Below, in pieces: positions 9,081-57,300 of a DNA stretch of 64,000 bases. Each line of letters starts with the position of its first letter. The first letter of the stretch is position 1. The position numbers and the translations under genes are program-made. Below the pieces are notes generated by a model. That model was not told the origin of the DNA. It did no database searches and saw nothing but the letters and a program-made list of their open reading frames with translations. This DNA is from Malacoraja senta (taxonomy: Eukaryota): contig CM075996.1 in NCBI GenBank assembly GCA_038087875.1, forward strand, positions 4,528,001-4,592,000, in the 5' to 3' direction.

Positions 9081-10986
9081 GAATCAGAGTATGTCTTACG
9101 TTAATCGATTTATGAAACAACTTGGTTATGAGGAGATAATGTTAGACTTCAAGCAAAAAAATCTTTTTCGTTTTGCTGGAACTTCCAACAGAATTTGTAC
9201 TTGCGATATACCCTTTGGCTGGGCCAACTTAATGAATGCATTTTCATGGCATGCTGGATTCCAGCGCCGTGCAAATGTGAAAGATAAAGCTTGGAAATAA
9301 GTCAGCCACCACATGAAGAGAGGAACAAAAGGAACGACTAGAGGACAAGTACTAGCAGTGGGGCACAAGGTGGGGGGGGGGGGGGGCAGATTGTTGCAAG
9401 AAATTCCATATCCTGTTTCAGGTAGGAGATCTCTGCATGTGGTGTGGTGGTGTCTGCAGTTCCATCAAAATCCAAGCATTCAGTTAGATCCAGGCTAGCC
9501 TACCTCTGCCTCACCTGGCTCAATTTCACAAGAGTTATGCAACATGGAGACAGTTCTTTCTATGAATGAAATTCTTACTTGCTGATGTAGCACAACAGGT
9601 TCGTAAACACAGTACTTAATAGAAAATAGAATAAACACATAGAAATGTTCAAATTAAAAAAAACAATTTAGTACAAAGAAAACGAAGCCCAAATTTCTTA
9701 GTGCATCCCGGGCATCTCGTAGTTCAGAGTTTCGTTGGAGTTTGTAGTGTTCAATAGCCTGATGGTTGTTGGCAAGAAGCTGTTCCTGAACCTGGACATT
9801 ACAGTTTTCAAAAGTGGGGAGATCAGTATGTGTGACGGACCGGGCAGTGTTCACCACTTTTTAAAATTTCCTTCGTGCCTGGGCGTTCGAGTTGCCGAAC
9901 CAGGCCATGATGCAACCAGTCAAATTGCTCTCTACCATACACCTGATGAGGTTCAATAGAGTATTTGTTGGCATGCTGAATCTCCTCAATCTTCTAAGGA
10001 AGTAGAGGCATTAATGGGCTTCCTTTATGATTGCATCAATGTGCTGGGTCCAGGACAGATCCTCAGAGATATGCAGGCCCAGGAACTTGAAGTTGTTAGC
10101 TCCACCACTGACCCATTGATGAAGACAGGTTTGTGGCGTGGTGTTTGAATTATTTCTAATGCAGAATAGCTAGCATCTGGAAGCTTTAACTTTGTAAATG
10201 TATATTGCAATGACCGGATACAGAGGTAAGAAACTAGCAGAAAGAGTTGAAGTCATTCGTTCTCACAAAGATGAAATTAGGAGTTGCACCAGGAAGCTTG
10301 ACAGTCCTGCACACTGGCAGTTAAATCAGCAGTATTAGCTTCTTAAAAGGGAATGAAAACAGGAAAATGAAAATGCTAGAGGGAAGGGGTGGTATCTGTC
10401 ATAGATTTCCCGCTTTTATACCGAGCCATATGATCCTAATCTACCAGAAACCCCCTTTAAAAGCTGGTGACACACGATTGTCTGGATGAAAGTTAGAAAT
10501 TGTTCAAAGCAGCTGTTATGAGACAGCAGTAATGCACTGAATGTCAATCAATCACTCAAAGACTTTATTGTCATTCAAAAATACACCCACAAATGCAAGT
10601 TTGAATGAAATTTCGTTGCATCTGGCTCACCATGCAACATAAAATAACAAAAGGATAAAATCGATAATAGTGGCGGCACATTATATGGAATTCAAGAGTC
10701 TGATGGCTCGGGGGGAAGCTGTTGCAAAACCTGGCCGTTCTGCTGCGATACCTTTTGCCCGAGGGCAGCAGGGGTGAACAGTCCATGATGGAAATGTGTG
10801 GGGTCTTTTATAATGCTGTTGGCCTTGGACAATTAATGGCATCGATTAATGCCGCACTCTTAATCCACGGTAATAACCTGGATTCAGAAAGAATGCAAGT
10901 CTGTCAAAAATCTGCGCGGACTGTTAAAGTCGCATGTGCAGATTGAAACAGCTCGGCTGCATGTGGTGGCGAGGCGAGGGCTGCAG

Positions 10987-11012
10987 CAAAGATCCTATAG
11001 CGAGGATCTTTG
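10987..11012. mobile_element. 26-bp palindromic insertion with 8-bp TSD (P-element-like footprint)
   Basis: GGCTGCAG|CAAAGATCCT-ATAGCG-AGGATCTTTG|GGCTGCAG; related copy at 40705-40732. Confidence 0.75.
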
Positions 11013-11029
11013 GGCTGCAGAGCGACTCC

Positions 11030-11350
11030 TGTGCACACCGGCAGCCTGGGGTTTGAGTGACGGCTCATTGACAGCGCGGTCACTGCGCGTGCGCGTGGCG
11101 CAAAGCCCCGCCCGCCCGGAAGCGCATGCGCAGTCAGTTGTGCGCTGGGATTGGAGGTGAGCGGAGGTGCGGCGGCGGCGGTGATGGCTCCTCAGTGATT
11201 CCCGCTCCCGCTCGGTAGGCCCGACCGTTCCCATGACCGCAGCCCCTGGCTCCTCCCCGCAGTGCTCGCTGTTTCATAGCGAACAGGTGAATGGTGAGCG
11301 GCTCCTGAAGGCCCCGGGACTCGGTGCCGGTGTCGGGGATGGAGGGTGGA
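11030..11350 (+). promoter_or_regulatory. CpG-island promoter and probable non-coding first exon of CCDC134
   Basis: CpG-rich island in AT-rich surroundings; NRF1-type TGCGCGTGCGC (11084) and GCGCATGCGCA (11122-11132), ETS CCGGAAG (11116), GC box CCCCGCCC (11106); candidate donors GTGAGC (11157) and GTAGGC (11215). Confidence 0.7.
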
Positions 11351-36300: not shown

Positions 36301-39300
36301 CGTGTTGCAGACTATTTAAACCATATATTATTATACCTTATACCATGACTTGTGAATATGACTGTAATCATATATAATTACATTATATAAAAGTAATATA
36401 ATGAATATAATTGTGAGTGTGTATTTTGAATGAGTGCCGCAGAGATCCGGCACCTGAACCAGCCTAATTCATGGGTGAGGGCAGTTCCTGTGGGTTCCCC
36501 CGTTTACTGAACCCCACTGACTGCCAGTGTGCAGAGTTGGGGTCACAGCCATAGTGGGACTGGGGCAATGCCAGGCTGGGGAAAGGCTAAGGCATCTTCC
36601 ACTGACAGAAAAATGCCTAACCCTAACCCTAACTTGCCCCCCTTCCAGAGCTGCCCACGGCTGGAGCTGGAGCTGCTTTGGGACCGGCTGCGGGCTCCGT
36701 ACGTGTGGCCCCGCAGCGGTCCACCTCGGCCAGCGTGCCCTTCTCGATCATCGTGGTGATGATGGTGGGGAGCACTGCCCTGCACGCCGCCTGGGCCACC
36801 TTCAACACCACCATAGCGCCGACTCCATCAGACCGCCTGCTCGCTCGCTGCAACACCGGCCATCTGATAGCCCGACTGACCCCTCGCAGCACCCACTGGC
36901 CGTCTGACCACTCGCAGCACCCACCGGCTATCCGACCACTTGCAGCACCCACCAGCGGCCCGGCCACTCTCACCATCCACCGGCGGACCGACCACTCTCA
37001 CCATCCACCAGTGGCCCGGCCACTCTCACCACCCATCGGCGGCCCGGCCACTCTCACCACCCACCGGCAGCCCGGCCTGGCTGACCACTTTCACGACCCA
37101 CCGGTGGCCTGGCCCGGCTGACCACCCTCACGACCCACCGGCGGCCCGGCCACTCTCACCACCCACCGGTGGCCCGACCACTCTCACCACCCACCGGCGG
37201 CCCGACAGCCCGACCAATCCTCCACAGGATCCATCGGCCTACCGACAAGCCAGACCGACCGACTGATCCTGACCCTAACCCTAATTCTAACCCTAACCCT
37301 ACATTTGTTATTTATCATTTTTACTTAATAGTTCACATGATAACTTTATAAATATAAATCAATTGAAAAACAAAATGATCAGCAAGGTTAGCATTACCTT
37401 TATTCCTTGGAAACCTTGTTATTGTTTTGATGTAATGAGGAGACAGCCATGATCCCAGGGTCCTCGCTGCCTAGCTACCATAAAACAAAGCGAGGGATTG
37501 GTCAATTTGCGTCCGACCTCAACGTCAAACGTGCATTGATTGGACAATTACTACTCTGGAAAATTGGAAGTTTTTGTCATATTTTTAAAAAATTTGCAGC
37601 ATTTTGGTCTTGAGGAGTTTCAGGTATGATTTATATAATATTTTTACACAATATGTTAAAAATACTGGTAGTTCCTTGAGTTGGGTCACGAACTTGAACA
37701 AAAAAGCTCCTCGGCCTACAGCCTAAATATACGGTTACTGATCTTGGTTTCGAGCATTAACATTTTGTATTTAGTGCTATGTTGTGAGGAAATAAGTGGC
37801 TCACATGAAAGTGTATCTTTGTTCCTCAATGATAATAATTTCATTATCTTTTTATAGAAATGCTGCAGTTTGTCAATGGCCAAGTTGGTGATTTTCCTGA
37901 CCTGTTTGAACAATTCAGCAGTGGTCTGACGGGATGCGACAAGCTTGACCAGCCTCCAGTTGCTCTACCACAGCAAGGAGGGCAGCAACAAGCGCCACTC
38001 CAACAGCAGCAACTGGTACAGCAACAAGCGCCACTCCAACAGCAGCAACTGGTACAGCAACAAGCGCCACTCCAACAGCAGCAACTGGTACAGCAACAGC
38101 CGCAGCAACAGCAACTAGTGCAGCAACAGGCGCAGCAACAGCAACTGGTGCAGCAACTAGTGCAGCAACAGTCCCAGCAACTGGTGCAGCAACAGTCCCA
38201 GCAACTGGTGCAGCAACAGCCGCAGCAACAGCAACTAGTGCAGCAACAGGTACAACAACTAGTGCAGCAACAGGTACAACAACAGCAACTAGTACAACAG
38301 CAGCAACTGGTGCAGCAACAAGTTCAAACCTCCATGGCACCAACACTCCCACAGACTCCTTCACCTGTAACCCAAAGGATCACCCCTGTTCTTCACCCTC
38401 GCCCACCGCACACACAACCACAACAAACGTTCATGATAACATCAAATTTTACCTCTGCACCAACACAGACTCGGATTATTCAACAGCCTGTGCTCACTTA
38501 CCAGAATCAAGGAGGATTTTCAGGTATGTGTTTACATAGATAGTATTTTAGAATCTTGTGGTTGAGTGGAATTCATGATTAAATGGCCTTTGAATCCACA
38601 TTAATTGTCGGTGAAATGACACCCTGATTTCAACACAGGAAACTGTACACTTGAGGTTTAAGCTTCATACATTGTGGCCAAGAGTTTTGTGTTCTTATCA
38701 AAAGGACAGCACAGTTGTGCATCTAGCAGAGCCATTGTCTCACAGTGCAGACACCTGGGTTCAATCCTCACCCCGGGTGCTGTCCAGGAGAAGTTTACAC
38801 ATAATCCCTGCGGCATGTGGATTTCTTCTGGATGCTCCTGTTTCTTTCCACATCCTAAAAATGTGCTGGACAGTGGGTTAATTGGCCGCTAATTTTGCCC
38901 GATGTATAGATGGGTGATAGAATCTGAGGAGAGTTGGCATGAATGTACAGAGAATAAAATAAAAACTTGATAAAAGAGGAATCACCTGAATCCTTTATTA
39001 TATTTAATAATTGTGAATTATGTTCCTGTAATTCAATTGAAAAATGATGTGTTACAGGGCTCTAGCTTAACTTTTTTTTCCTGTTGCCAGCCGGGCAAGC
39101 TTGGCAGCTTTTTAGGTTGCCAAATGACAGTTTAGGTGGTCATTTAAGATGGCTTGCATGACGCGTGCGATAATGTGCTCGGACGAAGTGCGTAGTTACC
39201 AGTCGGAATTATACTCAATGAAGCATTCACATATTATTTCTGCTTCAAATATAAGTCACAAACTAAACATATTTCACCAATCAAGACATGATATATCCAC

Positions 39301-42300
39301 AATGACGTGCAGCAAAATTATAAGACAGTATCTCAACTCTTTTTACACATTGCAATGAATGCAATTTCTATTAGTTCTTTCCACTTCCAAACAAAAATGT
39401 GGTTGGATTATTCAGCGTATGATCAACCTGTGTCAATAAATCCTGGACCATGGTAACATATATGCGTACATATAGTTATGAATGTTGCTCATTAAATAAC
39501 TACAGTACTGATACTCCATATTAAGAACATTGATTTGCCGTTTAAAATGAATTCTGTAATAACGTGTCAACGGCAGCAGTGACAATCGAACACTGCGGTT
39601 TTAATGTTTCACGTGTTCACAATTTAATTAATCCATCTTTATGGATTAAAACAAATAATAACATTGGGAATTAAAACACATTTGATTGCATACCGTTATC
39701 AAACATAGTCAGTGTTCTCTCTGAAGGACATTTCCAGCACAATAGGGTCAGGGAGGGGGGTGTGTGTGAATCAGTACGGGGTGGATAGGTGGGGGGAAGG
39801 GGGGTTAGAAGGCAGTCGGTGCAGAAATGGATGGATTGAGGCAGGTGAATTAGTACGTGTTGGTTGGAGTAGGTAAAATTGTGAGGGGAGAGCACCGGGG
39901 ATGTCAGTGGTGTTGAATGGGGGGGTTCAGTACGGGATGGATGGGGGTAGACAAAAGTGCTGGAGAAACTCAGCGGGTGAGGCAGCATCTATGGAGCGAA
40001 GGAAATAGGCAACGTTTCGGGTCGAGACCCTTCTTCAGACTGTTCCCCCCATTCTTCTTGAATGGGAGGATCAGTACAGGATGGATGGGGGGGGGAGATC
40101 AGCGCAGGATGAATGGGGGGGGTCAGAACAGTGTGGATCGGAGGGTCTGTGCAGGATGAATGGGCGATCACTACAGGATGAATGAGGGGAAGGGGGGAAG
40201 GTGCAGGGTAAATGGAGGGTGGGTCAGTACGGGATGAATGCGTGGATTAGTACAGAATGGATGGGGGATCAGTACAGGATGGATGGAGGAGAAGTGCAGG
40301 ATGGATGGGAAAGTGCTAAGTACAGGGTGAATTGGGGAAACCAGTTTAGGATGGATGGATGGGGGGGGGGGGGTGGCAGGAGAATCAATGCGAGGTGGAT
40401 AGGGTGATCAACGCAGGATGAATAGATGGGAGGGGGGGTAGATGGGGAGGGGAGCACAGGGGATGTCAGTGAGGACTGAATAGAGGCGGGAACGGGGATC
40501 AGTGCGGGATGGAGTGGAGGGGTCCCAGGATAAGGGTGGAGGGGCGTACAAGAGAGAGAGGGAGAGGGGGGCGAGGTGGGGAGGAAGGAAGGTCAGCGCT
40601 CCTCGGACAACATCGCCCCGCTGCCTTGACCCTTGGGAACTCCTCGCCACCGCCTCCCTCCTCCTCCAGCCAACAGGTAAGGTGCGGTGCCGAGCGGTGC
40701 AGCTCAAAGATCCTATAGCTATAGGATCTTTGGTGCAGCTGCTTCAGAAGGGTCGGAGCGAATGACGGGCCCCGCACAGCGGCTCCATCTCCTCCTCCTC
40801 CCGCCCCCCGCCCGCCCTGATAAGGGCCTCTGCTTGTAAATCCGGTAATGGCACAAAACAAACCCTCCCGCACGCCGAGGCCTCCCCCTCCCTCCCTCCT
40901 CCCGGCCTCGGAGTGCGGGAGGGTTTGTTTTGCGCCATTACCGGATTTACAAAGCAGAGGCCCTTATCAGGGCGGGCGGGGGGCGGGATGAGGAGGAGAT
41001 GGAGCCGCTGTCGTGGCCACTGCTGCCGCTGTGCGGGGCCCATCATTCGCTCCGACCCTTCCTCACCCCGCACCTAGTATCACAGCCGCCGCAGACAAGA
41101 AACGTCGCGTTCCTTTTCTCCAGAGATACTGCCTGACCCGCGGAGTTACTCCAGTTTTTTGTGTCTATCTTCGGTACAAACCAGTATCTGGTTGCCAAGC
41201 CGGGCAAAATGACTCGGTTTAGGTTGCCCGGCGGAGCTTTGAGTGGTCAGTGGCACCCGGGCAACCGCTAATTTCAAGCCCTGTGTTATGAGGAGGAAGA
41301 AAAAAAAAGATTTTTTCCGAAAATATATTTTCTTAACTTTAGATAAATTTCCCGATTTTCAATGATATCCCACTCGATTTAAGCCACAATACTTTGCTTT
41401 GTGTCTATTAACTTGTATTCCAATCATTGTGATTTGTGAATCTGTCTTCCTGGAACAATTTGCTCTTTCCCACTCAGGCTCTTAATTGTGGCCCTTCCCT
41501 GCAATCAAATGAAGTTCCTCATCATCTACCTATTTGTCAAATGTATATATATAGAGTTGTGCATTGGGTGGTGTCTGATTAGAAACATAGAAACATAGAA
41601 AATAGGTGCAGGAGGAGGCCATTCGGCCCTTCGAGCCAGCACCACCATTCAATGTGATCATGGCTGATCGTTCCCTATCAATAACCGGTGCCTGCCTTCT
41701 CCCCATATCCCTTGACTCCACTAGACCCTAGAGCTCTATCTAACTCTCTCTTAAATCCATCCAGTGACTTGGCCTCCACTGCCCTCTGTGGCAGGGAATT
41801 CCATAAATTCACAACTCTGGGTGAAAACGTTTTTTCTCACCTCAGTCTTAAATGACCTCCCCTTTATTCTAAGACTGTGGCCCCTGGTTCTGGACTCGCC
41901 CCACATTGGGAACATTTTTCCTGCATCTAGCTTGTCCAGTCCTTTTATAATTTTATCTGATTTAATTGAAGAATAAGGAATGTTACAATTGTTTCTGTTA
42001 ATAACTTGGTTTTACTTACTTTAATCTTGGATATTTTTATAGTTCTTCAGTCCCAGCTACAGAACCTGGTCACTTCCTCACAGGTGCAGCCAATCACCTT
42101 TCAGCAGCAAGTGCAGGGCCTGTCAACCCACAGGATGCTTACATCAGCCACCACAGGCACCATTCAGACGCTAACCCCTGCCACCACCACCACCACTGTC
42201 CGAACACACGCACCACAGATGCAGCAGGTTCCTGTAAGTATGCTTTTTCCAAAGGTCCAAGTCACCCATTTACTTGTTAGACGACTATTAAGTAGGAATA

Positions 42301-45300: not shown

Positions 45301-48300
45301 ATCATCAAGTGATTAATTCATCCGAGTGACCTGTTCAGCTCTAAGTTCAATCCTTGTTAGTTGGAATACAATGCATAATGTATGACTACTATTTTTTGAA
45401 AATTTGAATCATTAGATCAAATAATCCTCTTGATTCAGATTTTCCCAAAAGTGTCTTGTTCAACATTCCAACAGCAAAGTTGAGTCAGAGATCATATTTC
45501 CCTCGCTGCTCTTGTATCTTGGAGCAAGTTACTTGGTTTGTCTTAAGGGGACCTCAAGTGGATCCAGAAAGTATGTCAGGGAAGGGTTTATTAGAAGACA
45601 TAAAAGTAAAATACTTATTAACTCTTTGTATTGAGAATTAATGTCATGTTTTTTTAAATCTCAGACATTGGTCAGCAGTAATGGAACTATTTTGACCACC
45701 ATGCCAATGATGGTTGGGGTAGAGAAGGTTCCGATCAAGCATATCACTGGAAATGGAAAACTCTCAATGGAAGGGCCGAAGGAGGGTGAAAAAAGAACAA
45801 CACACAACATAATTGAGAAGCGTTATAGGTCTTCCATCAATGATAAAATTATAGAACTCAAGGATCTTGTGATGGGGACAGAAGCTAAGGTCAGTCAGTT
45901 GCATCACTCATTTTTCTTTATGGGTTATTCCATTTTGATGTGTTAAAAGGCCTGTCCCACGGTACGAGTTCATTCCAAGAGCTCTCCTGAGTTTTAAAAA
46001 AATCAAACTCGTGGTAAGCACGGAGAATGTATGTAGCGGGTACATCGGAGCTCGGGGACATCTCTTAGCGATTCTTAACGCTAACGGCAGGTACTCAGGA
46101 AGACTCGCTAATGGCAGGTAAGCACGGAAAGACTCGTGAAGATTTTTCAACATGTTGAAAAATGTCCACGAGAGCCCCGAGTACCGACGAGTGGCCATTA
46201 CCGTAAATCTCCGAGTTCGAATCAGGGCAAACTCGGGAGAACTCTTGGAATGAACTCGTACCGTGGGACAGGGCTTTTACTTTGCTGATGATATTAACTT
46301 AGAGTTAAATGAGTCATGTGCCAGAGTCTATGCTTGATTCATCGTTCAAACAATCAGATCTATCAATTTATACAGAATTATCAGTTCAGGATACCCTAGG
46401 TTTAATTTCTGACTTTCAGATTATATGCTCGTTTCATCTGGCAGGTTTTTGATTATGTTAACTGATTTGTGCGTGTGTGTGTGTGTATATTCTATAGTTT
46501 TTGAAGCTTGTACACAGACACTTGTATCTCTGAGCTTCAGAAACTATAGAATATATTATATTAGTTATATAGTTGTGTGTGTGTGTATATATACACCAAT
46601 ATATACAAACAACTCTGAGCTTTAACAATTATAGACTGAGGGAGCAAGAGCAACAAAATCAATTCAACATTTAATTGCCCATGGAATCTAGCTTTGGAAA
46701 TTCATTGCTGACAAGACTGTTATTTATTAAACGTTACCAGTTGTGCTTGAGAAGATGGTGGAATGGTCTATTTTGAGAATTTCCACATTGTTATTGGACA
46801 GGAAGCTTGGGAATTTTGATGTACAAATGGAATATTGATCCTGTGCTAAGTTAGACTGGTGCTTGACATTGAGATTTTTATCTTTTTAATTTATCTTTCT
46901 CACTGCATCCTTACTAGTAACGATTAATGAAAAGAAGAGAGAGCGTTACATTTGCATTAGTTTAGCAATAATTGTAAGTAGTTAAGGCATCAAACAAGTT
47001 TGCAGTATGTTTTATGACCTTTTCATTAAACTTTAAAAAAAAATTGAGATGTAACTTATTTCAGCAACAACAGATTGTATTTATGTAATAGCTTTAACAT
47101 AGTTAAAACATCTCAAGTGTTTCACGGAAGCATTACTAGATACAATTTGGCACTATACAACATAATATGTTCAAAGTGAAATAACTGTTCATTTATCTTA
47201 TTTGATCCATGAGAAGAGGCTGTACACAATTTCTTCCAAGACTACAACCTTTTTACCATTTAATTAGGTTGAAAATTGTGTATGATATTATACGTTATGG
47301 TGATGGCACAATTTTTAAAATAAATAACCACTACACTTAAATGCCAAAAGCTAATGTGACATATTTTGCAGATGAACAAATCTGGAGTTCTAAGAAAAGC
47401 CATTGATTACATTAAATACCTGCAACAAACCAACCACAAGCTACGACAGGAGAACATGGTACTAAAAATGGCTAACCAGAAAAATAGTAAGTAGTGCCAG
47501 GTTTATATCAAAGGGGAGGTTCCTCCTTATGCAACTCTTACAATGGCAATTCTAGTCATCTATACTTTAAGTTTAAACACACTTGGATTGCTTTATTATG
47601 CATACTTGTACTGAATGTTAATACTTTAGAGAAATCTGGTTTAGATGAGATGCTTCCAACTGTGTTCACGAGTGAATTATAACTTAATATCTCATTTAAG
47701 TTGTTGTAAATTTACAGCTACATATTTAAATGTATTCCTTTTTCCAATATTGCAGAGGGTCTGAAGGGATCTGAGATTACCAGCCTGTTGGACATTGATA
47801 TGGACCTGAAGACCGATGACTTCAAATCGCATTTATTGATCATGTCACCACCACCTTCAGATTCTGGCTCCGCTGGAACGTTCTCACCTTGCTCCATTGA
47901 TTCTGAACCAGGAAGCCCTCTCCTTGACGAAGCGATGGTAGCAGCCATTTCAATAATATCGTTTGTAAAAATCTGGGAACCCCTAAGGAATATTTTTGTT
48001 TAAACATTTTTTATATCTTGTGTTCCTGCACCTTGCTCTTAGTTTTGAGCAAAACACAATGTGCTCGAGTAACTCAGCAGGTCAGGCGGCATCTGTGGAT
48101 GCAACATTTGCATGCCCTTCTTCAAACTGATGATGGGGTGAGGAGAAAGCTGGAAAAAGGTGGGGGCGAGACGAGGCCTGGCAGTGGATGGGTAGATACA
48201 AGTGAGAGGCGTTAGATTGGCTGATGTTAATGACAAAGGTTGGAGATACAAAGACGACGTAAGGGTGTCAGATAAAAAGAGAAGATAAGTGAATTATATA

Positions 48301-54300: not shown

Positions 54301-57300
54301 TTGCCAGAATGCTATTGATCAAAATTTCACAGATTTCAAAATTTCCAAAGGTCTGAAGAAGGGTTTCGGCCCGAAACGTTACCTATTTCCTTCGCTCCAT
54401 AGATGCTGCTGCACCCGCTGAGTTTCTCCAGCATTTTTGTGTACTTTCAAAATTTCAAGGTTGACAACTGAAGGTTTGATCAAAGAGATAGGCGTAAAGT
54501 AGAATTTTAGTAGAAGTAGACCTGCATTGAAAGAATCATCTCTAGAAACCATGTATTTGAATCTCCCATTGATGCAGGAAGTGAACCCTAATACAAGATT
54601 TTTTATGTCATACTTTTTGTGTTACTCTGTAGACTGAGTCTGTTGTACCAGTGTATTTTATACAATACATAATTTGCATCCAATCTTGAAGCTGAACTGG
54701 AGATGCTAATCATTGTGATTTATACTTTGCCTTTCGCAGTTGATCCAGTAGCCCAAGTGAACCAAGCCTTTTGTGAAAATTTGCTTGAGAAAGCTGTATA
54801 CTCGCTGGTCAAACCAGAGGTTGAGGATGCGGGGTATGTACACTGGCCTAATGTAAGTGGTGGGGAGGGGGGGTTATATGGGGTAGAATGAATAGCTGAA
54901 GAAAAGCTTGGCGAAAACAATTCCTTCATTTCTTGGACGGTGAATGGCTTTACAGAAAGGCAATTGGTAAATTGAATAATTCTTTATTGTCTGTTTCTAT
55001 GCGAGGTAAAGGATTTTAATATAAATGGAATGAGGGATAATTAGTTTTGTGGGAAACTTGCATTTTCCCGTCTCTCCATGGTAAATAATTGGAATCAAAC
55101 AACCTTTTTAAGGGCCTGTTCCACTTAGGCGACTCTTTAGGCGACTGCCAGGGACTAGTTTTAATGGAATTCATCTATGACACCTGGCGACAACCTACAA
55201 TATCACCTACGTCAACCCACGACAACACCTACGATAACCTACGACAACAAAAATTATCGCCACTGTCGCTGAAAATTTTTCAACATGTTGAAAATTTTGC
55301 AGCAGTCGCCTGTAGTCGCCCAAAAAATCGCCTAAGTGGGACAGGCCCTTCAGAAAATGTCACGTATTTAAAAAGTCCTGACTTGACCCTGACATCAGAA
55401 AAATTGGTCCTTGGTTCTGCAGGATAAACGTTCCAGTCTAGCTCTTGGGAGGAACAGAATATTTGATTAAATTCCTGCAGTTTGTTGTCTTCAAAATAGA
55501 ATCAAGCAGGCATTATATTTCCTCCTACTCTTAATTCTTGGGAATTAACTCTCCGCTTAGATTTCTTTGTTTTTGTTTTGGAAGAGTTTTAGATTTGATT
55601 GTTTTAGCACTGTTTTGTCCTGCCCCAGTAATATCATTTTTGGTGAATGAAGGCAAATCTTAACCAAAATGAGTCCGAGAATGCTGTACCATTATAAATT
55701 ATATTATTCACAAAGATTACATGAAAATCCAAAATTCCATTTTGGAATCATAAACCTTTGCCAGTATTGAAATAAAGGGATAAATGGGGATTTAGAAAAT
55801 TCTCCATCAGACTTCAGAAATGCAGCGCGGAAACAGGCCCTTCGACCCACTGAGTCCACACTGACCAGCGATGTCCCGTACGCTACCACTATCCTACACC
55901 TTAGGGGCAATTTTTTTTTTTTGCTAAAGCCAATTAACCTACAAACCTGTATGTCTCTGGAGTGTGGGAGGAAACTGGAGCACCCGGAGAAACCCCATAT
56001 GGTCACAGAATGGAGAATATATTCATTGGCATGAATATAAGTATGATTTAGCATATCATAAGTACAAGTGTACAATTTCAGGAACCAAGAATAATATGAT
56101 TCTCAGCAGTCTGAAGAAGGGTTTCGGCCCGAAACGTTGCCTATTTCCTTCTCTCCATAGATGCTGCTGCACCCGCTGAGTTTCTCCAGCACTTTTGTGT
56201 ACCAATGATTTATTATATGATCTGCTGAGTTGAAGATGATTTTAAGTGGAAGATCTATGTTTCATTGCCAATCTCCAAACTAAACTAAAATGTATTGTCT
56301 ATTGCAGAGAATTCTCCAATGCTTTTGAGTATTTACAGTTACTTAAAACTTGTGCTGACACAGCTGGAAATTGGACACAGGCATTTTCCATTGATTCCAG
56401 TCTGAGGAGAACTGCAGGTGAGAGTTTGGCTTTGGAATGATTTGATTTTGGGTCAATGATTAAAAAATGAGCAGAATAATCAATTAAAGGCAGTGATGTG
56501 GGTAAATGCCATGTTCCCCATCATATGAACATTAGACATAGGGGCAGAATTAGGCCATTCAGCCTATCAAGTCCATTCCGCCATTCAATCATGGCTGAGC
56601 TATATTTCCCTCTATATTTCCCCCTTTTTCCTGCCTTCTTCCCGTAATCCTGAAGCCCCACTAATCAAGAACCAAATGGAATCAATCTCCGATTTAAAAA
56701 ATACCCAATGACTTGTCCTTCACCACAATCTGCGGCAATTAATTCCACAGATTCACCACCTTCAGGCTAAAGAAATTCCTCCTCATCTTCATTCTAAAGG
56801 TGTGTGCTTTAATTCTGAGACTGTGCCCTTTGATCCTAGTCTCTCCCACTCCTGGAAACATCCTCTCCACATCCACTCTATCTAGATTCAGATAGATACC
56901 CATTATTCAGTAGATTTCAGTGAGATCCCCATTGTCCTCTTCCTGCTTTGAAGGAGCATTCTTGATGACTCTGCAAACAAGTCTGTGCAGAAATTACGTT
57001 TTGGTTTATTTTTGAAGGATGCGGACATAATGTGGTCAAATGAGAGTAGTATAGATGGGCAAAATGGTCAGCGTGGACTTGATGGACCGAAGGGCACACA
57101 AGTGTGCTGTATGTCTCTGATTTCAATTTCTGTCATCCCCTCCAATTGAAATGGTTTTTTTGTACAATATTTGCCATTCCCTTGAGTTATCCTGAGTCCC
57201 CATGATCTCCCATCTCAACCAATGTTTGATGGATTGCTAGCAAAGAACTACTAGTTCTGAAACTACTTTCAATAATTTCATCAGATAGTCTTCAAACTTT

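What the first reader, a model, noticed from the sequence alone, without database searches (positions are those of the whole stretch)
40697..40740. Second P-like footprint: perfect 28-bp palindrome between 8-bp direct repeats
GTGCAGCT|CAAAGATCCTATAG-CTATAGGATCTTTG|GTGCAGCT equals two 14-bp TIR stubs joined head to head. The same TIR occurs at 10987 with a different TSD and a different junction, as expected from independent insertion and excision/repair events. Both targets are GC-rich and contain TGCAG.
Basis: partly seen in the sequence, partly recalled or inferred. Interest (0 to 1): 0.7.

Follow-up and report, generated by a model that had tools for sequence, protein, structure and literature searches.

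The report
Old transposon scar copied as cargo
The 28-base palindrome is real and is likely the scar of a P-element-type jumping gene that cut itself out long ago, but it sits inside a second, much-copied jumping element whose other copies carry the same scar, so it likely arrived here as a passenger and should not be counted as a new excision event.

Summary
The best reading is a P-type excision scar: two transposon-end stubs joined, probably 15+15 on a 2-base GC overlap rather than 14+14. Public contigs from all seven organism labels laid carry the scar with the same host flanks, many copies per run, and no empty host site was listed. The scar likely formed once in a master copy of a 2.2-kb host transposon (5-bp duplication, so hAT5-like, not 8-bp hAT) and spread with it. 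The same 14-base tip marks 36 metagenome loci from a eukaryote that shares no repeats with the window: 22 independent sites, 14 with 7-9-bp duplications, stubs up to 20 bases, and 13 of the 36 again host-borne. No P transposase could be linked (no genome held), so P membership is inferred. This scan reported such scars before in other skate-like genomes. New here are the passenger origin, which biases scar-length censuses, and the non-skate occurrence.

The parts
40697..40704 (+). left copy of the 8-bp target-site duplication GTGCAGCT
40705..40732 (.). perfect 28-bp palindrome; two transposon-end stubs, 15+15 overlapping on GC or 14+14 blunt
   Evidence: base 15 = C from the 10987 site and from +3-base variants (table 4)
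40733..40740 (+). right copy of the 8-bp duplication
39055..41283 (.). host non-autonomous DNA transposon carrying the scar: 7-bp matching ends CAGGGCT, subterminal GTTGCC/GGCAAC motifs, no transposase domain in the 14 host frames scanned, very high copy
   Evidence: depth
39050..39054 (+). left 5-bp duplication TGTTA of the host
41284..41288 (+). right 5-bp duplication TGTTA of the host
40747..41061 (.). fold-back inside the host (arms about 40747-40882 and 40904-41061); a subfamily feature, since another host form runs from 40748 straight to about 40877
   Evidence: joints and loose ends
41066..41081 (-). likely truncated remnant of a second host-borne scar of a sister end (inferred from 30-letter loose-end consensuses)
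   Evidence: table 7 rows 40747-before and X6 40749-before

Best explanation
The palindrome is likely the end-joining scar of a P-superfamily-type transposon, and it likely formed once inside a master copy of a second transposon, whose copies in all seven organism labels laid carry the same scar with the same flanks. Steps: (1) inferred: a P-type element inserted into a GC-rich part of the host and duplicated 8 bp; (2) inferred from Drosophila P biochemistry: excision left both donor ends with the same long 3' tail of terminal-repeat sequence; (3) inferred: the tails were trimmed and annealed on the self-complementary GC at bases 14-15, which gives this 28-mer exactly; (4) shown: host copies with the scar are numerous in several organisms; (5) inferred: one young host copy later landed in this SREBF intron with a 5-bp duplication.
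For: Anatomy exact and beyond chance. Host-borne: 24 of 32 listed pieces cover the whole 44 bp with at most 6 gap letters; 11 of 32 have 31 or more letters on both sides of the centre (X19 2, X2 4, X23 5, X6 0 of 8 each) and differ from the window at 4-12 letters. In one search one piece each from X1, X21 and X5 covers it too. Summed depth on the left flank is 138,726 in X19 against 19.8 for a single-copy contig; this is no copy number but points to hundreds to thousands. No 36-base deletion or skip joint is listed in the untruncated tables 4 and 5. In one search the shown joints leave the left segment at 40745-40748, after the scar. Host younger than scar here: X19 has a contig joining the host end to unique flank, while X21 and X5 contigs carry 329 and 317 unaligned letters left of about 41312. 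Family-wide scar anatomy: 22 independent loci in a non-skate eukaryote have 22 different inserts of 27-40 bp, 14 with a 7-, 8- or 9-bp duplication at up to 1 mismatch (shifted controls 2 of 854 and 0 of 853). One subfamily's stubs reach 20 bases, and two 36-mers fit 20+20 overlapping on CGCG. Drosophila P leaves 17-nt 3' tails and 8-bp duplications; two 2-nt-microhomology joins near the tail tips make 19 of 68 junctions (PMC2895639, table and legend passages). P-superfamily duplications are 7, 8 or 9 bp (PMC3698922, PMC4168063 passages).
Against: No full-length element or P/THAP9 transposase was linked to this end: no genome held, none among 130 of 135 open frames of 90 aa or more from the loci, none in viral contigs. 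Empty host copies could be missed: the common host form shares only 26+8 letters with the stretch, 164 loose-end rows were hidden there and 223 joint rows, and contigs drop rare variants. 8 of 22 independent loci have no recognisable duplication. The search pattern fixed the first 14 and last 9 bases and capped the gap at 20, so longer internal-deletion remnants could not appear.
Confidence: 0.72

Rival explanations
1. One reading: a P-like element inserted and excised at this genomic place, independently of other host copies.
For: The duplication and palindrome are perfect. The same stub also occurs in unrelated flanks (8-19 contigs per run in 3 of 4 runs), so independent events do occur. The 10987 site is likely one of them.
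Against: The same scar with the same flanks is in several distinct contigs per run and in seven organism labels; no empty host form was listed. The host copy here looks younger than the scar (table 8).
Confidence: 0.04
2. The stub pair is an extreme internal-deletion remnant made by aborted gap repair or replication slippage between the inverted repeats, so its length says nothing about cut depth.
For: P breaks are often repaired by partial synthesis followed by end joining (PMC2895639 passage). The pattern used could not see remnants longer than 43 bp.
Against: Stubs in the G-subfamily reach 19-20 bases at one or both ends in 9 of 10 scars (1 mismatch allowed, against a 20-base reference taken from one scar) and agree poorly beyond 20. 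Junctions carry short overlaps or insertions typical of end joining.
Confidence: 0.1
3. The 28-mer is itself a mobile micro-MITE that inserts with 8-bp duplications.
Against: 22 of 22 independent inserts in the second organism differ; the two window sites differ. A preferred microhomology join predicts recurrence of the same 28-mer without mobility.
Confidence: 0.06
4. Same scar logic, but the donor is not P: another superfamily with CA...TG ends and 7-8-bp duplications that also cuts deep inside its ends.
For: No transposase was linked. The end sequence was not found in the papers searched.
Against: The papers read describe the long staggered cut as atypical and special to P (PMC7776569, PMC10983969 passages). 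Hairpin-type scars copy flank sequence, and this insert shares at most 4 letters with its flanks.
Confidence: 0.08

Closest known systems
Drosophila melanogaster P element donor-site repair junctions (PMC2895639, passages with Tables 1-3; PMC7776569, passages)
   Same: 8-bp duplication on both sides, two terminal-repeat stubs joined head to head, short microhomology at the junction, GC-rich target (PMC2577343 passages), one site at a promoter-like CpG island
   Different: Other end sequence; a fixed germ-line relic in a fish, not an induced event; this copy was multiplied by a host transposon; related scars reach 20 bases against 17; transposase not identified
Zebrafish Pdre2 / THAP9 elements (PMC10983969, passages)
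   Same: Vertebrate P-like ends beginning CA, 8-bp duplications
   Different: Different 13-bp terminal repeat; the passages read describe no genomic stub scars
Galileo, 1360 and BuT5 of the P superfamily (PMC3698922, PMC4168063, passages)
   Same: 7-, 8- or 9-bp duplications within one superfamily, as in the second organism's subfamilies
   Different: Insect elements known as full or MITE copies; no sequence link tested
hAT5 group (PMC12730594, passage) for the host
   Same: 5-bp duplication, short terminal repeats starting CAG (the CAG start as hAT-like is recalled)
   Different: One copy only, no transposase; assignment untested

Membership tests
P superfamily (donor element) | 7-8-bp target-site duplication | tested here: met
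   8 bp exact at both window sites; 7 or 8 bp at 13 and 9 bp at 1 of 22 independent loci
P superfamily (donor element) | terminal inverted repeats beginning CA | tested here: met
   compared with Drosophila and zebrafish ends
P superfamily (donor element) | long staggered donor cut leaving terminal-repeat tails on both flanks | tested here: inconclusive
   Scar anatomy fits (stubs 9-20 bases on both sides), but the pattern imposed minimum stubs and a length cap; no biochemistry
P superfamily (donor element) | THAP9/P-type transposase between the ends | not testable with these tools
   No genome; no hit in 130 frames of the loci; records not searchable
P superfamily (donor element) | internal transposase-binding sites or subterminal repeats; GTP dependence | not testable with these tools
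   Only stubs are in hand
hAT/RAG-type hairpin footprint | palindrome copied from the flanking donor DNA | tested here: not met
   Longest word shared with 100-bp flanks is 4; same stub in unrelated flanks. The definition is recalled.
canonical hAT (host) | 8-bp target-site duplication | tested here: not met
   Of lengths 2-10 only 5 matches
hAT5 (host) | 5-bp target-site duplication | tested here: met
   TGTTA on both sides, one copy only; definition in PMC12730594
hAT5 (host) | hAT transposase in an autonomous partner | not testable with these tools
   No Pfam hit in 14 host frames scanned, of 34 listed
MITE (28-mer as mobile unit) | uniform length and sequence across independent insertions | tested here: not met
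   22 different inserts at 22 loci; 26 against 28 bp in the window

The most novel reading that the evidence does not exclude
One P lineage with a conserved 14-base tip is or was active both in skates and in a distant animal, cuts about 20 rather than 17 bases into its ends, switches between 7- and 8-bp duplications among sister families, and leaves scars that other transposons capture and multiply. Scar collections, once purged of such passengers, would then read out cut depth and germ-line end-joining rules across phyla without an active enzyme.
Probability: 0.45. Interest if true: 0.55.

Novelty: new variant of a known kind. Interest (0 to 1): 0.36.

Why it matters
For this site the result is deflationary: it is a passenger, not a new event. 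It matters for method. The proposed test, and earlier notes of this scan, infer the cut stagger from genome-wide scar lengths. One old scar multiplied by a host can dominate such a census: 13 of 36 loci in the second organism and likely hundreds to thousands of copies here. Scars must be collapsed by flank first, and only the longest stubs bound the cut, because common lengths (12, 22, 28) follow self-complementary words in the end. The same tip in a non-skate eukaryote, with stubs to 20 bases, suggests the long staggered cut, described biochemically for the Drosophila enzyme, is shared by a widespread P lineage with a different depth. That is testable in vitro.

Tried and rejected
Own genome: not held, so no census of host copies or full elements. 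First lay (1.15 kb) was swamped by a SINE; only parts were usable. Viral contigs: 0 hits for three patterns. Prokaryote genomes: 1 hit in 596 billion bases, without duplication or palindromic right half, taken as chance. Pfam: no P, THAP or hAT domain in 130 of 135 frames of the loci (5 left out as duplicates) or in 25 window frames. Record search for a P domain was not possible. Look-ups by sequence and by relatives in earlier findings were blank. Paper searches for the end sequence gave 559 papers for a 9-mer (15 listed, none on transposon ends by title) and 1 unrelated paper for a 13-mer. Searches listed no paper on P scars in cartilaginous fish by title or abstract start; Repbase and Dfam were not searchable, so absence from print is not shown. 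Rejected: assembly artefact (seen in seven organism labels), hairpin-type footprint, 8-bp hAT host, TGCAG as a general target. Folding (z = -5.6) only restates the palindrome. The clade of the second organism was not determined. No supplements were opened.

Full report
Observation. The sequence is as described: GTGCAGCT at 40697-40704, a perfect 28-bp palindrome at 40705-40732 and GTGCAGCT at 40733-40740. Its 14-base arm occurs three times in the window, twice here and once at 10987, where a 26-bp insert lies between GGCTGCAG repeats. These are the only two sites with an exact 8-bp repeat around an insert with inverted ends of 6 or more bases. In 100 resamplings such sites averaged 0.11, inverted ends never passed 8 and palindromes never passed 24.

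Setting. The window holds the last exon of CCDC134 near 22.6-22.75 kb and an SREBP-family bHLH exon at 45.6-45.9 kb. That it is SREBF2, and that the animal is a skate or ray, is recalled from gene order and repeat content and comes from no call. The 10987 scar lies at the edge of a CpG island, likely the CCDC134 promoter. The 40705 scar lies in a GC-rich part of a 2.2-kb element, 39055-41283, with 7-bp matching ends and a 5-bp duplication; no other length from 2 to 10 matches. hAT elements usually make 8-bp duplications and the hAT5 group 5-bp ones (PMC12730594, passage), so the host is at best hAT5-like. No Pfam domain was found in the 14 host frames scanned.

The scar is cargo. No genome is held, so I laid public contigs. 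One search listed 24 runs; I laid 8 of them, covering organism labels A-G. On 40660-40780 597-1,080 contigs per run were laid. Of the 32 pieces listed (3,306 hidden), 24 cover the whole 44 bp with at most 6 gap letters. Eleven have 31 or more letters on both sides of the centre (X19 2, X2 4, X23 5, X6 0) and differ from the window at 4-12 letters. Four or five different bridging contigs in one run are more than two alleles of one locus. Loose ends at 40679 (18-36 contigs per run) and 40748 (12-37) agree at 0.70-0.86 and read as host sequence. In one search, one listed piece each from X1, X21 and X5 also covers the scar at nearly equal length. Summed depth on the left flank is 138,726 in X19, against 19.8 for a single-copy contig. 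The tool warns that this is no copy number; allowing up to 31-fold overcounting it suggests hundreds to thousands of copies.

No empty host site was listed. Tables 4 and 5 are untruncated and hold no 36-base deletion or skip. The joints shown leave the left segment at 40745-40748, after the scar. This is not proof: the common host form shares only 26+8 letters with the short stretch, 164 loose-end rows and 223 joint rows were hidden, and contigs drop rare forms. The host copy at this locus looks younger than the scar. In X19 one contig joins the host end to unique flank (41255-41593, 1 difference), while contigs of X21 and X5 align only from about 41312 and carry 329 and 317 further letters that do not match the host.

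The family exists outside the host. In three of four runs, 8-19 contigs carry the stub pair with unrelated flanks (agreement 0.40-0.58). Variants with three extra central bases show base 15 = C and base 16 = A in one subfamily; the 10987 site shows C and G. So the repeat is longer than 14, and the 28-mer reads equally as 15+15 on a GC overlap. Annealing two identical tails on self-complementary words of the first 15 bases predicts scars of 12, 20, 22, 24 and 28 bp. Earlier notes of this scan report 12-, 22- and 28-bp forms in other skate-like genomes; I did not check them.

A second organism. A two-stub pattern found 36 loci in metagenome contigs, none in viral contigs and one chance-looking hit in prokaryote genomes. 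The 135 kb of these loci share only the stub with the window. The window's SINE and LINE probes hit it 24 and 7 times and the loci never. Reverse-transcriptase, MULE, PHD and Ig frames mark them as eukaryotic; the clade was not determined. I dropped 3 loci seen twice and 11 further members of two host-borne clusters (5 and 8 loci; the second assigned by eye from the alignment), leaving 22. All 22 inserts differ (27-40 bp), and 14 have a 7-, 8- or 9-bp duplication at up to one mismatch; 8 have none. Shifted controls gave 2 of 854 and 0 of 853. Ends continuing GGC had 8-bp duplications in 7 of 11 (one 7, one 9, two none); the others had 7-bp ones in 5 of 11 and never 8 (Fisher p = 0.005 on 7 against 8, grouping chosen after seeing the data). 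In the GGC group stubs reach 20 bases, and two 36-mers fit 20+20 overlapping on CGCG. The pattern fixed the first 14 and last 9 bases and capped the gap, so the shared tip was imposed by the search and longer remnants were invisible. The duplications were not imposed.

Mechanism. Drosophila P transposase cuts with a 17-nt stagger, makes 8-bp duplications and prefers promoters (PMC7776569, passages) and GC-rich targets (PMC2577343, passages). The donor ends keep 17-nt 3' tails, and repair gives stub-to-stub junctions; two 2-nt-microhomology joins near the tips make 19 of 68 junctions (PMC2895639, passages). Other P-superfamily members make 7-, 8- or 9-bp duplications. The scars here match that anatomy. 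The order I infer is: insertion into a host copy, excision, end joining on GC, amplification of that host in the common ancestry of the organisms laid, and a late jump of one copy into this intron. Shown: anatomy, host-borne multiplicity, family breadth. Inferred: the P enzyme, the overhang, the order of events. Against: no transposase was linked, and gap-repair deletion is not excluded.

Verdict. It works like a P-element donor scar; membership of the donor in P is likely but untested at its defining feature, the transposase. The scan has reported the scar family several times. This report adds that scars ride in hosts, which biases length censuses, and that the same tip occurs outside skates with stubs to 20 bases. 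The paper searches listed no account of such scars in cartilaginous fish, but repeat databases were not searchable. Interest 0.36; new variant of a known kind.

Noticed in passing
window 41066-41081 (-); table 7: Loose-end consensuses (24-37 contigs per run, agreement 0.81-0.91) show a 12-base insert starting CAAAGATAC before GTGCGGGG, with 6 letters of the same repeat visible on its left; 11 contigs of X6 look like the empty form. Likely a second, one-sided scar in the same host; the window copy has part of it deleted.
   Followed up: partly
window 40747-41061: Fold-back of about 135-bp arms at 96-98% inside the host. Another host form lacks it, so a template-switch duplication likely founded a subfamily.
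   Followed up: partly
window 40724, 40725, 40730; table 3: End variants: G>A at 40724 in 58% of X19 depth; changes at 40725 and 40730 in 14-47 contigs of X23 and X2, pointing to a sister end beginning CATAGATAC.
   Followed up: no
window 46142-46163 and 55277-55294: The same palindrome (22 and 18 bp, centre AACATGTT) in two related GC-rich repeats; likely an internal feature of another repeat family.
   Followed up: no
window 10979-11300: The second scar lies about 100 bp before GCGCATGCGC (11122; NRF1-like, recalled) in a CpG island, likely the CCDC134 promoter.
   Followed up: partly
window 37900-38330: Long glutamine-rich tandem expansion in an SREBF exon.
   Followed up: no
L006, L015, L016, L025, L034; L001, L002, L007, L010, L014, L020, L026, L035: Two repeat families in the second organism carry a scar, one young and one old and diverged.
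   Followed up: yes
L003 10001-10060: A 27-bp scar whose right duplication is replaced by a short tandem tail, likely a retroelement end.
   Followed up: no
window 39759-40430: Satellite-like 22-28-bp purine-rich repeats and two SINE pieces lie inside the host; depth at 40450-40527 suggests part belongs to the host family.
   Followed up: no
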